DNA of 64,000 nt from the NCBI RefSeq assembly GCF_035594765.1, contig NC_085842.1, positions 19,072,782 to 19,136,781 on the forward strand, given 5' to 3'. The stretch is from Anolis carolinensis (lineage: Eukaryota). Position numbers: made by a program. The stretch's first letter is position 1, and the number at the start of each line of letters is the position of its first letter. Below are positions 48,601 to 51,600 of the stretch, piece by piece.

Positions 48601-51600
48601 TTTTTAAACTTTAATATAAGCTTTGCTTTTCAACTCCATTCACACAGGAGAAAGGCCATTGAAATGGTTGCAGTGTAAAAAGAGCTTCAATCAAAAGAAA
48701 CGCCTTATTCATCAGGCAACTCACAAAAGAGAAAGGCTGTGCAAATGCTTGCAATGTGGAAAGAGCTTCAGTCACAAGAATGTCCTTATTATTCATCAGG
48801 CAACTCACACAGGGGAGAAGCCATTTAAATGCTTGCAGTGTGGAAAGAGTTTCAGTCGCAAGCACGACCTTATTAGTCATCAAACAACTCACACAGTAGA
48901 GAAGCCATTTGAATGCCTGCAGTGTGAAAAGAGCTTCAGTCTAAAGGGAAGCCTTATTCGTCATCAGGCCACTCACACAGGAGAGAAACCATTCAAATGC
49001 TTGCAGTGTGAAAAGAGCTTCAGTCGGAAATCATACCTTATTCGTCATAAGGCATCTCACACAGGAGAGAAACCATTTAAATGCTTGCAGTGTAAAAAGG
49101 GCTTCAGTCAAAAGCAGCACCTTATTACTCATCAGGCAACTCACACAGGAGAGAAGCCATTTCAATGCTTTCAGTGTGAAAAGAGCTTCAGTCTAAAGGG
49201 AAACCTTATTAGTCATCAGGAAATTCACAAAGGAGTGAAGCCATTTCAATGCTTGCAGTGTAAAAAGTGCTTTAGGCGCAAGAACATTCTTATTAGTCAT
49301 CAGGCAACTCACACAGGAGAGAAGCCATTTCAATGCTTTAAGTGTGAAAAGAGCTTCAGTCTAAAGGGAAACCTTATTCGTCATCAGGCCACTCACACAG
49401 GAGAGAAGCCATTTAAATGCTTGCAGTGTGGAAAGAGCTTCAGTCGAAACTCACACCTTGTTTGCCATCAGGCAACTCACACAGGAGACAAGCCCTTTCA
49501 ATGTTTGCAGTGTGAAAATTGCTTCAGTCAAAAAAGCAGTCTTATACGTCACCAGGCAACTCACACAGGAGTGAAACCATTTCAGTGCTTGCAGTGTGAA
49601 AAGAGCTTCAGTCAAAAGAGCAACCTTATTATTCATCAGAAAACTCACACGGGAGAGAAGGCATTTAAATGCTTGCAGTGTGGAAAGAGCTTCAGTCGAA
49701 ACTCACACCTTGTTTGCCATCAGGCAACTCACAAGGGAGAGTAACCATTTAAATGCTTGCAATGTGAAAAGGCCTTCAGTCACAAGCACACCCTTATTGG
49801 TCATCAAGCAACTCACACAGGAGTAAAGCCTGTTAAAGGATATCAGTGTGAAAAGAGCTTCAGTCACAAGCACGTCCTTATTAGTCATCAGGCAACTCAC
49901 ACAGGAGAGGAGCCATTTAAATGCTCAGTGTGAAAAGAGCTTCAGTCGGAAATCACACCTTGTTTGTCATTAAGCAACTCAAGGCAGAGGAAAACTATCT
50001 GTTTTCCATCTGTCGGGGGTGCTTTGAATGCGATTTCTTGCTTCTTGGCAGGGGTTTGGACTGGACAGCCCATGAGGTCTCTTTCAACTCTACTATTCTA
50101 CTAGAGTGTGTAAAGATCTGCAGTTGAAACACAAGCCTTCTTTTTTAATTGTCAACCTATACGGAAGAAATGGGGTAAAGGGAAGATCATTTGTTTTACA
50201 TCAGAGTGGGCATGAATCTTTGTTATAGAAACACTAAGTTAAAAAGCAATGGCTTTTGGGGAAAATAATAATCTGACCAATATCTCATTAAGCATAACTA
50301 ATATTTTGAGAGCTAAAGGAAGGATATTTCAAGTTTTCTTTTAGCCATTCATGAACATTGGTTACTGCAAATATTTCCTGTCATGTATATTCAGGGTTAC
50401 TTTTGGACTTTACCTGGACATTGCAACACAATACTTCCATTCAGGTGGGGAAATCACCTCTCCCTATCCTTGGGGAAGAACCAGTTTCACCACCCTGCGC
50501 CTTTGATGAACAGGACTTCTCGCATCAGAAGGAATCTGCATGACTACAGCCAAACCCCAACCTCTGTCATTTTGCATAATTGTATTAATATATTATGTTT
50601 TGTTTCTCTGGGGCCTGGAATCACCAGCCCAGCCCTATTAATGGGCCATGTCATGTACATCTAATAAGACAATAGCATTCCTGGGTAGGGCCAGAAAATG
50701 CCCTCAATCACTTTGTTATTTTTCCTGTTCAGTAAAAGGAGCCCCATTCATCAATGCTTAATCATCCATTGTCCCAGCCCATGCTGGCCAGTGAGCCAAG
50801 CCCCTCTCTGTGACTGGTCAGAATTCAAGGCTTGGCTGCAGGCTATGTATAAAAAGGGCTCTGAAACTGTATTCTGTATGCTATCTACTTTATGAATGTA
50901 TCACTAGCTAACATCTTACCTGCAGATAATAACATTTTCCTTGGCTGAAAATCACCTTCTCTCCTTGCTTGCTGGCTAATTTCAGTTGGGCCTAATCTAT
51001 TTGCTCACCAAAGCAGGGACTCACTCAAAATGGGCAGCTCAGGCGGATCACTTGCCTGGGTTTCTGCCAACAGGCTTCTCCCTGGTCTCCCTGCCAGGGG
51101 TTGCCTCCTAAAATGGGGCCAACAAGTATCTTAGGCGATCCCTCGTAGCTCGAGGACGATTGTCTTCCATCCTTGGTGTCTTGGGGGTGGGTTCTTAAGT
51201 GGCTGAAGAGACCTATTCTTGACCCGCATATTCTCCCGCAGTGAGAACATCGGTTTCCAGGTGGAAGGCGGTCCCGGTCGGGGTTAGCTTGACGCTCCTT
51301 CCTCTTGGCATGTTTCTCCCTTAAGCCCTCTGTTCATGCCTCTTCGAACTCCGCAGCACTGCTGGTCACAGCTGACCTCCAATTAGAGCGCTCAAGGGCC
51401 AGGGCTTCCCAGTTCTCAGTGTCTATGCCACAGTTTTTAAGGTTGGCTTTGAGCCCATCTTTAAATCTCTTTTCCTGCCCACCAACATTCCGTTTCCTGT
51501 TCTTGAGTTCGGAGTAGAGTAGCTGCTTTGGGAGACGGTGATCGGGCATTCGGACAACGTGGCCAGTCCAGCGGAGTTGATGGCGTAGGAGCATCGCTTC

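What the first reader, a model, noticed from the sequence alone, without database searches (positions are those of the whole stretch)
49330..49744. Paralogs B and C differ mainly in the DNA-recognition helices of fingers 8-11, partly through intra-array conversion
Fingers 1-7 and the flanking introns are nearly identical. The -1/2/3/6 residues change from B to C: F8 LGNS to LGNR, F9 HHVR to RSHC, F10 ESSR to QSSR, F11 QVNR to QSNI. C 49374-49481 is a copy of the F11/F12 segment seen at B ~29840-29947, so a downstream finger was pasted three units upstream with finger number unchanged. This is PRDM9-like minisatellite evolution of binding specificity caught between young duplicates, consistent with the known KRAB-ZNF versus TE arms race.
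Basis: partly seen in the sequence, partly recalled or inferred. Interest (0 to 1): 0.66.

Follow-up and report, generated by a model that had tools for sequence, protein, structure and literature searches.

The report
Finger cassette copied within duplicated zinc-finger gene
Two young tandem copies of a SCAN-KRAB zinc-finger gene differ mostly because a 109-base stretch encoding the last finger was copied over a finger three units upstream in one copy, a clean example of a well-known way these genes change their DNA-reading parts.

Summary
The window holds three tandem SCAN-KRAB-C2H2 genes: A with 22 fingers, B and C with 12 each. B and C lie about 20 kb apart and differ at 0.79% of flanking sites (122 of 15,437). 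Their 1008-bp arrays differ at 35 sites. Of these, 21 fall in C 49379-49476, 11 in C 49619-49661, and 3 are singletons.

C 49373-49481 matches B 29839-29947 (end of F11 plus F12) at 109 of 109 bases. At 139 informative sites C carries the donor state at 22, and 21 of those are consecutive. No run of 109 or more appeared in 200,000 simulations. Outgroup A sides with B at 30 of the 35 sites, so C is the derived copy.

Three qualifications apply:
- The tract matches B exactly but C's own F11/F12 at only 102 of 109 bases, so "intra-array" is not established.
- The F11 cluster has no donor in the window.
- Contact residues show no dN/dS excess (0.53 against 0.47), and a TE arms race was not tested.

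This is a good instance of a known process. I do not take the contig for human; it looks squamate.

The parts
49373..49481 (+). Converted tract in paralog C. The maximal extent is 109 bp. The minimal extent is 49379-49476, which holds 21 informative sites. It covers the +6 codon of the F8 helix, the F8-F9 linker, and F9 up to its second His region.
   Evidence: 109 of 109 bases identical to B 29839-29947. 21 of 21 consecutive informative sites are in the donor state, flanked by recipient-state sites at 49372 and 49482.
29839..29947 (+). Donor-type sequence in paralog B: the end of F11, the linker and F12 (helix RNSHLVC).
   Evidence: Exact match to the C tract. B12 and C12 are identical over 84 bp.
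49625..49733 (+). C's own present-day F11 end plus F12. This is the alternative donor, but it differs from the tract at 7 of 109 sites.
   Evidence: All 7 differences lie in the second cluster.
49619..49661 (+). Second cluster: 11 B-C differences in 43 bp of C F11 and its linker. They give V>S at +2, R>I at +6, A>K, P>A and 2 synonymous changes. No donor is present in the window.
   Evidence: best in-window match 8 mismatches in 43. Poisson P = 1.3e-13. F11 dS is 0.26 against 0.008 in the other fingers.
49529..49529 (+). Single G>C substitution giving E>Q at position -1 of F10 in C.
   Evidence: A and B share G.
48648..49744 (+). Predicted zinc-finger exon of C. It begins after an AG acceptor at 48646-48647 in phase 1. 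It holds a degenerate finger 0, 12 intact fingers (48746-49732), and a TAA at 49742-49744.
   Evidence: ORF; fingers; Pfam zf-C2H2 3.9e-56; acceptor read. There is no transcript evidence.
28862..29958 (+). Predicted zinc-finger exon of B, with 12 fingers at 28960-29946 and the same TAA.
46208..46328 (+). KRAB-A exon of C, 121 bp, phase 0 to 1. The equivalents are 26580-26700 in B and 11514-11634 in A.
   Evidence: Pfam KRAB 7.8e-19. Splice sites read. B and C show 0 differences here.
42785..43198 (+). SCAN exon of C, from its ATG to a GTAAGA donor. The equivalents are 22323-22736 in B and 7631-8044 in A.
   Evidence: Pfam SCAN 5.2e-32. Sequence read.
49754..49921 (+). Relic fingers 13-14 downstream of the stop codon in C. 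The B equivalent carries a 1-bp frameshift near 30012.
13801..15648 (+). Array of paralog A, used as outgroup. It has 21 intact fingers, then A22 with a 3-bp deletion, then the same TAA.

Best explanation
After the roughly 20-kb tandem duplication that produced B and C, one non-reciprocal copying event occurred in the C lineage. It could have been ectopic gene conversion or an SDSA-type template switch, with the 84-bp repeats paired three units out of register. It overwrote 98-109 bp of C (the end of F8 and nearly all of F9) with the sequence of the end of F11 plus F12.

The donor was either C's own F11/F12 before that finger changed, or B's F11/F12. The event kept 12 fingers and the reading frame. 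It had three effects on the protein:
- It replaced the whole F9 recognition helix (HKHVLIR to RNSHLVC, so F9 and F12 now share a helix).
- It changed F8 +6 from S to R.
- It changed the F8-F9 linker from KGVKP to the canonical TGEKP.

Two further C-lineage changes also altered contact residues. One is a point substitution at F10 -1. The other is an 11-site cluster in F11, probably imported from a paralog outside the window.

The inferred consequence, which is not shown, is this. The two SCAN-KRAB proteins keep the same F1-F7 reading head but read different bases over the roughly 12 bp contacted by F8-F11.
For: Shown in the sequence:
- The tract matches at 109 of 109 bases, and no other in-window match comes closer than 5 mismatches.
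- Of 139 informative sites across C F1-F9, 117 are in the recipient state and 22 in the donor state. Twenty-one of the 22 form one uninterrupted block.
- The offset of 19,786 bp is the same on both sides of the tract, and both arrays have 12 fingers.
- Polarity: A agrees with B at 30 of the 35 B-C differences and with C at 5. A15/A16 are the nearest relatives of B8/B9.
- In the unit tree, C9 sits with B12/C12 at support 0.94, while C1-C7, C10 and C12 pair with their B orthologues.
- Simulation gave 0 of 200,000 runs of 109 or more.

Against a graph mis-join: recipient and donor share only 6 bp (49373-49378) and 5 bp (49477-49481) at the two junctions. From general knowledge, that is far shorter than any assembly k-mer.

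B and C are separate loci in this contig. C alone carries a 1752-bp poly(A) retroposon flanked by a 13-bp target-site duplication, and A and B hold the empty site.

Precedent: GENECONV finds short conversions among poly-ZF paralogues (PMC2604467, passages read). Finger duplication and deletion is called a common path of divergence (PMC3126818, passages read).
Against: - No reads are available, so an assembly or polishing artefact inside an 84-bp repeat array cannot be excluded.
- The donor is ambiguous. C's present F11/F12 differs from the tract at 7 of 109 sites.
- The F11 cluster has no identified donor, so calling it a conversion is inference. That inference rests on whole-codon replacements and a raised dS based on about 3 synonymous differences.
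- Clusters of 5-8 B-C mismatches per 100 bp also occur at 5 places outside the ZNF exon and its relic fingers, one of them in the SCAN exon, so clustering alone is not special to the array.
- There is no evidence here that either gene is expressed, that the proteins bind DNA differently, or that selection favoured the change. dN/dS is about 0.5 at contact and non-contact codons alike.
Confidence: 0.78

Rival explanations
1. Assembly or polishing artefact: the C F8/F9 segment is a mis-placed copy of F11/F12 created when near-identical 84-bp repeats in two 99%-identical paralogues were assembled.
For: The array is a 79-82% self-similar tandem repeat inside two units that are 98-99% identical. 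This is the kind of place where assemblies err. No read data are available.
Against: - The junction identities between the recipient and donor registers are only 6 and 5 bp.
- The tract is in frame and leaves 12 intact fingers.
- The contig has no N.
- A comparable 105-bp out-of-register identity exists independently in A.
Confidence: 0.1
2. Two reciprocal events, an unequal crossover that duplicated units followed by a compensating deletion, rather than one non-reciprocal conversion.
For: Arrays in this cluster do change length: A has 22 units and B and C have 12. A carries three extra units exactly between the orthologues of F11 and F12.
Against: It needs two events whose breakpoints restore both the exact unit number and the exact register. 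F10 and F11 of C remain orthologous to B10 and B11 on the far side of the tract. A single 98-109-bp patch is simpler.
Confidence: 0.05
3. The differences arose by independent point substitutions driven by positive selection on the recognition helices (arms-race convergence of F9 on the F12 helix).
For: Variation among fingers is concentrated at helix codons. The mismatch frequency there is 0.56-0.75, against a mean of 0.16 across the 84-bp unit (517 non-orthologous unit pairs).
Against: - All 21 differences, including synonymous ones (codon 6 of F9 and codon 27 of F8) and linker codons, match the donor exactly.
- Poisson P = 4e-23.
- dN/dS at contact codons of orthologous A-B fingers is 0.53, not above 1 and not above the rest at 0.47.
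Confidence: 0.02
4. The polarity is reversed: C keeps the ancestral F8/F9 and B was overwritten, for example by conversion from A.
For: A and B exchange sequence elsewhere. The tail of the A unit, 17874-19389, is 98.6% identical to B 37108-38625, while the gene bodies are about 90% identical.
Against: B8 and B9 differ from A15 and A16 by 4 and 2 bases, so they are not a fresh copy of A. The C tract is an exact duplicate of a segment present in both B and (at 102 of 109) C, which marks C F8/F9 as the copy.
Confidence: 0.05

Closest known systems
Gene conversion and finger gain/loss among paralogous KRAB/poly-zinc-finger genes (Emerson & Thomas 2009, PMC2604467; Nowick et al. 2011, PMC3126818; Kauzlaric et al. 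2017, PMC5363842, 'drifting and shifting' of arrays). I read passages of the first two and the abstract and passages of the third.
   Same: Young tandem paralogues in a cluster. Short conversion tracts occur in the finger exon. Changes come by whole-unit events in an 84-bp periodic array. The effector domains are nearly unchanged: the KRAB exon shows 0 differences.
   Different: Here the register shift, tract ends, polarity and residue consequences are resolved to the base for one event. The event replaces a finger without changing finger number. The genes are SCAN-KRAB genes of a probable squamate, not mammalian KZFPs.
PRDM9 zinc-finger minisatellite
   Same: The coding repeat has an 84-bp period. 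New helix combinations arise by out-of-register recombination between units.
   Different: Units here are only 79-82% alike and 0.81-0.87 identical out of register. The three coding exons carry SCAN and KRAB and no PR/SET domain. Contact residues show no dN/dS excess. Allelic diversity is unknown. The high unit homogeneity of PRDM9 arrays is recalled, not taken from a call.
Lizard SCAN-KRAB-ZNF expansion (Liu et al. 2014, PMC3971581; passages and Table 1 read)
   Same: The SCAN + KRAB + poly-C2H2 architecture, for which that paper counts 240 models in Anolis against 28 in human. The KRAB lacks the central Leu of the MLE cluster: this window reads IMEEN where the mammalian KRABs of solved structures read VMLEN or VMLET.
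   Different: That paper catalogues genes and fingerprints. In the passages I read it does not describe intra-array conversion. The species of this window is not established.

Membership tests
KRAB-C2H2 zinc-finger gene (KZFP) | KRAB-A box upstream of the fingers on the same strand | tested here: met
   Pfam PF01352 at 7.8e-19 for B and C and 2.9e-17 for A.
KRAB-C2H2 zinc-finger gene (KZFP) | Tandem C2H2 fingers joined by TGEKP-type linkers in one exon | tested here: met
   12 fingers matching CX2CX12HX3H in each of B and C. Pfam zf-C2H2 3.9e-56 and zf-H2C2_2 4.2e-89.
KRAB-C2H2 zinc-finger gene (KZFP) | Exons splice into one open frame | tested here: inconclusive
   Consensus splice sites with compatible phases: SCAN exon ends in phase 0, the 121-bp KRAB exon runs phase 0 to 1, and the ZNF exon starts in phase 1. 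The three lengths, 414+121+1097, sum to 1632 = 544 codons. There is no transcript evidence. The exons were not joined for any search.
KRAB-C2H2 zinc-finger gene (KZFP) | KRAB recruits KAP1/TRIM28 | not testable with these tools
   DV and EEW are present, but the MLE cluster reads MEE. PMC3971581 says KAP1 binding by lizard KRAB cannot be assumed.
SCAN-domain zinc-finger gene | SCAN domain | tested here: met
   Pfam PF02023 at 5.2e-32 (C), 1.1e-33 (B) and 2.6e-34 (A).
Ectopic (non-allelic) gene-conversion tract | An uninterrupted block of donor-state sites flanked by recipient-state sites | tested here: met
   21 of 21 donor-state sites in 49379-49476. 117 of the other 118 informative sites are in the recipient state.
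Ectopic (non-allelic) gene-conversion tract | Donor sequence identified | tested here: met
   B 29839-29947, 109 of 109 bases. Whether the actual donor molecule was B or ancestral C is unresolved.
Ectopic (non-allelic) gene-conversion tract | No change in copy number or register (non-reciprocal) | tested here: met
   12 fingers in each array and a constant offset of 19,786 bp on both sides.
Ectopic (non-allelic) gene-conversion tract | Real in the genome (independent reads) | not testable with these tools
   No reads and no eukaryotic genome collection were available.
PRDM9-like coding minisatellite | 84-bp tandem unit | tested here: met
   TRF reports period 84 with 15.6-26 copies.
PRDM9-like coding minisatellite | Near-identical units differing mainly at contact codons | tested here: not met
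   TRF reports 79-82% matches. The mean mismatch between non-orthologous units is 0.16, with many non-helix sites at 0.1-0.4. The benchmark for PRDM9 is recalled.
PRDM9-like coding minisatellite | Excess nonsynonymous change at -1/2/3/6 | tested here: not met
   Nei-Gojobori dN/dS on 11 orthologous A-B fingers is 0.53 at contact codons (4 nonsynonymous, 2 synonymous) against 0.47 elsewhere. The counts are small.
PRDM9-like coding minisatellite | Allelic length or sequence polymorphism of the array | not testable with these tools
   Only a single assembly is available.

The most novel reading that the evidence does not exclude
In this probably squamate SCAN-KRAB cluster, new binding specificities arise chiefly by cassette shuffling of existing helices, not by point substitution. 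The shuffling would run through a recurrent out-of-register pairing of the F8/9 and F11/12 units. The same register pair is joined by a 109-bp identity in C (F11/12 copied onto F8/9). In A it is joined by a 105-bp identity in the opposite direction (F8/9-type sequence following the F11 orthologue). Contact-residue dN/dS is unremarkable.
Probability: 0.2. Interest if true: 0.5.

Novelty: new member of a known kind. Interest (0 to 1): 0.3.

Why it matters
This is a base-resolved natural example of one short conversion patch rewriting the specificity residues of two adjacent fingers, and repairing a linker, in a freshly duplicated transcription-factor gene. An outgroup paralogue lies on the same contig, so the direction of change is known. 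That makes B and C a convenient matched pair for testing how far swapping one finger shifts the target of a 12-finger protein. It also adds a non-mammalian data point on how SCAN-KRAB-ZNF clusters diversify. It does not open a new question: array shuffling and conversion in KZFP clusters are established.

Tried and rejected
- Donor search for the F11 cluster. I searched whole and half segments against every position on the + strand of the window. The best matches had 8 mismatches in 43 bases, and 4 and 3 mismatches in the two 22-base halves, so there is no donor in the window. The minus strand was not scanned.
- Contact-residue selection. dN/dS at -1/2/3/6 is no higher than elsewhere, so the positive-selection reading gets no support. 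The counts are small.
- Rfam scan of the whole window at gathering threshold: 0 matches.
- Pfam on the two ORFs of the C-specific poly(A) insertion. Nothing passed the cut-offs; only a sub-threshold ESCRT-II hit appeared. Calling the insertion L1-like rests on recall plus its poly(A) tail and target-site duplication.
- Gapped megablast undercounts the tract (17 mismatches, with gaps inserted). The in-frame ungapped count of 21 is the one I used.
- Paper searches. I found general statements on conversion and finger gain or loss. In the listings and passages I read, nothing describes this locus or intra-array conversion in reptile SCAN-KRAB genes. That is not proof of absence.
So the species, other copies of the gene family, and any out-of-window donor stayed unchecked. 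Paper supplements were closed too.
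Full report
**What is in the window.** The 64-kb window has no N. A pattern scan finds 48 C2H2 fingers. On the + strand there are 22 in array A (13801-15708), 12 in B (28960-29946) and 13 in C (48746-49816). One more lies on the minus strand inside a LINE. Self-BLAST shows tandem units: A about 5543-19387, B 19388-39865, C 39866-62373, and the start of a fourth from 62374. B and C are 98-99% identical, with 122 mismatches in 15,437 aligned bases outside the HSP that holds the array (0.79%). 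A is about 90-95% identical to them over the gene body.

**Gene structure.** Each unit carries a SCAN exon, a KRAB-A exon and a finger exon. For C, Pfam gives SCAN 5.2e-32, KRAB 7.8e-19 and zf-C2H2 3.9e-56, and B and A score alike. The splice sites are consensus and the phases are compatible:
- C 42785-43198 runs from the ATG to a GTAAGA donor and ends in phase 0.
- C 46208-46328 is 121 bp, phase 0 to 1.
- C 48648-49744 starts in phase 1.

I searched the exons one by one and did not join them into a spliced protein for any search. The gene model has no transcript support.

**Is the contig human?** I do not take it for human. The architecture is a tandem SCAN-KRAB-ZNF cluster. Its KRAB reads MEE where the mammalian KRABs of solved structures read MLE. 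Liu et al. report exactly this loss of the central Leu for the lizard KRAB consensus. They count 240 SCAN-KRAB models in Anolis against 28 in human (PMC3971581, passages and Table 1 read). The species itself could not be checked, because no eukaryotic collection was open.

**Checking the observation.** B and C stay at a fixed offset of 19,786 bp through the array. Both have 12 intact fingers followed by an in-frame TAA in the linker after F12, then decaying relic fingers. A has the same stop, so the truncation predates all three copies.

The 1008-bp arrays differ at 35 sites:
- 49000, synonymous, in F4.
- 49100, S>G, in F5.
- 21 sites in 49379-49476.
- 49529, E>Q at position -1 of F10.
- 11 sites in 49619-49661.

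In total 19 residues differ. Ten lie in helix positions -1 to +6, and 8 at -1/2/3/6.

**The copied tract.** C 49373-49481 equals B 29839-29947 at 109 of 109 bases. I examined the 139 sites across C F1-F9 where B's orthologous base differs from B's base three units downstream. C has the orthologous state at 117 and the shifted state at 22. Twenty-one of the 22 form one unbroken block at 49379-49476, and the last is the lone site 49000. The breakpoints fall in 49373-49378 and 49477-49481.

The match is far beyond chance:
- Among 129 register comparisons of the three arrays, the median longest exact run is 31 bp. The 109-bp run is the longest that is out of register.
- With position-specific mismatch rates taken from 517 non-orthologous A/B unit pairs, 0 of 200,000 simulated comparisons reached 109; the maximum was 81.
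- In a FastTree tree of 51 units, C9 joins B12/C12 (support 0.94). C1-C7, C10 and C12 pair with their B orthologues, and C8 leaves the B8/A15/B6 group.

**Direction.** Unit-by-unit nearest neighbours give these orthologies: A1-5 = B1-5, A13 = B6, A14 = B7, A15 = B8, A16/19 = B9, A17 = B10, A18 = B11. A22 corresponds to B12 by its RNSH helix and the shared stop. At the 35 B-C differences, A agrees with B at 30 and with C at 5. C is therefore the changed copy.

**Mechanism.** One non-reciprocal patch of 98-109 bp best explains the data. The repeats would have paired three units (252 bp) out of register, and finger number and frame were kept. The patch does three things:
- It replaces the entire F9 helix, so F9 and F12 of C now have the same helix, RNSHLVC.
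- It changes F8 +6 from S to R.
- It turns the F8-F9 linker KGVKP into TGEKP.

That it is gene conversion or template switching, and not two compensating crossovers, is inference from parsimony.

**The donor is not settled.** The tract is identical to B's F11/F12, but it differs at 7 of 109 sites from C's present F11/F12. All 7 lie in the F11 cluster. Two histories fit. Either C copied its own F11/F12 and F11 changed afterwards, or B supplied the sequence by out-of-register exchange between paralogues. I see no way to decide within the window.

**The F11 cluster.** Eleven differences fall in 43 bp (Poisson P = 1.3e-13). They include two codons changed at all three bases and two synonymous changes. 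F11 dS is 0.26, against 0.008 for the fingers outside the clusters, though this rests on about 3 synonymous differences. No segment on the + strand of the window comes closer than 8 mismatches in 43. Import from a diverged paralogue outside the window is the most likely cause. It is not shown.

**What argues against an artefact, and what does not.** The two registers share only 6 and 5 bp at the junctions, too little for a repeat-graph mis-join. The product is in frame. C is marked as a separate locus by a 1752-bp poly(A) retroposon (56193-57944) with a 13-bp target-site duplication, and A and B hold the empty site. A also shows an independent 105-bp out-of-register identity (15058-15162 = 15310-15414). 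Still, without reads an error in this repeat array, or a haplotype placed in tandem, cannot be excluded.

**Selection and the arms-race reading.** Variation among fingers peaks at the helix codons. The mismatch frequency there is 0.56-0.75, against a mean of 0.16 across the unit. That is the usual poly-ZF pattern. Between orthologous A and B fingers, however, Nei-Gojobori dN/dS is 0.53 at -1/2/3/6, 0.46 over -1 to +6, and 0.47 elsewhere. These data show no sign of positive selection on contact residues by point change. No TE target was examined. The arms-race statement remains an analogy with mammalian KZFPs.

**Comparison with what is known.** Short conversions among poly-ZF paralogues were detected with GENECONV by Emerson and Thomas (PMC2604467, passages). 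Finger duplication and deletion is called a common path of divergence (PMC3126818, passages). Mouse KZFP paralogues are said to evolve by 'drifting and shifting' of arrays (PMC5363842, abstract and passages). The present case is a clean, polarised instance of that process in a SCAN-KRAB gene outside mammals. The PRDM9 comparison holds for the 84-bp period and for out-of-register exchange. It does not hold for unit homogeneity (79-82% here) or for domain content.

**Verdict.** The finding is a new member of a known kind, of modest interest.

Noticed in passing
window 15058-15162 and 15310-15414 (array A): A 105-bp exact identity three units out of register inside A: the end of A15, A16 and the start of A17 equal the end of A18, A19 and the start of A20. 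It joins the same register pair (the F8/9 and F11/12 orthologues) as the C event, but in the opposite direction. It sits where A has three extra fingers.
   Followed up: partly
window 29387-29459 vs 29555-29627 (also C 49173-49245): A 73-bp exact identity between F6 and F8, two units apart, shared by B and C. Simulated P for a run of 73 or more is 4.5e-4 per comparison. Both fingers carry HQEIH where A has HQAIH. This suggests an older conversion in the B/C ancestor.
   Followed up: partly
window 22308-22760 (B) vs 42770-43222 (C), SCAN exon: B and C differ at 9 bases here, and all 9 lie in codons whose residue differs, giving 8 residue differences and none synonymous. Five cluster in the stretch before the SCAN domain, where A agrees with C. 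The KRAB exon has 0 differences.
   Followed up: partly
window 56193-57944: A C-specific, A-rich, poly(A)-tailed retroposon of 1752 bp. It is flanked by a 13-bp target-site duplication (56180-56192 and 57945-57957). A and B have the empty site. It looks L1-like by recall, but Pfam found no family for its ORFs.
   Followed up: partly
window 15565-15648, 29956-29958, 49742-49744 and downstream: All three paralogues share an in-frame TAA in the linker after the RNSH finger, with two to three relic fingers behind it. B's relic has a 1-bp frameshift near 30012. A's last finger, A22, has lost one codon.
   Followed up: yes
window 51187-54290, minus strand (B equivalent about 32185-35270): A nearly full-length LINE downstream of the gene, shared by B and C at 98.4%. 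It has an endonuclease (Pfam 4.1e-06), a reverse transcriptase (1.3e-39) and a C-terminal C2H2-like finger. Another reverse-transcriptase fragment lies in the SCAN-KRAB intron of A and C (10237-10791 and 44790-45383).
   Followed up: partly
window 1211-1585, minus strand: A SCAN exon (Pfam 9.2e-37) of a further gene that points away from the A-B-C array. Its finger exon would lie beyond the left edge of the window.
   Followed up: no
window 17874-19389 vs 37108-38625: The tail of unit A is 98.6% identical to the tail of unit B, although the gene bodies are only about 90% identical. The divergence between units is therefore mosaic. This could reflect later homogenisation or different duplication boundaries.
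   Followed up: no
window 60283-60629: A GC-rich 65-bp tandem repeat of 5.4 copies at 93% matches. It lies in a stretch of C that is locally duplicated relative to B (59283-59867 is about 90% identical to 60637-61212).
   Followed up: no
window 46208-46328 (also 26580-26700 and 11514-11634): The KRAB-A box keeps DV and EEW but reads IMEEN where the mammalian KRABs of solved structures read VMLEN or VMLET. This is the loss of the central Leu of MLE that PMC3971581 reports for the lizard consensus. KAP1 binding therefore cannot be assumed.
   Followed up: partly
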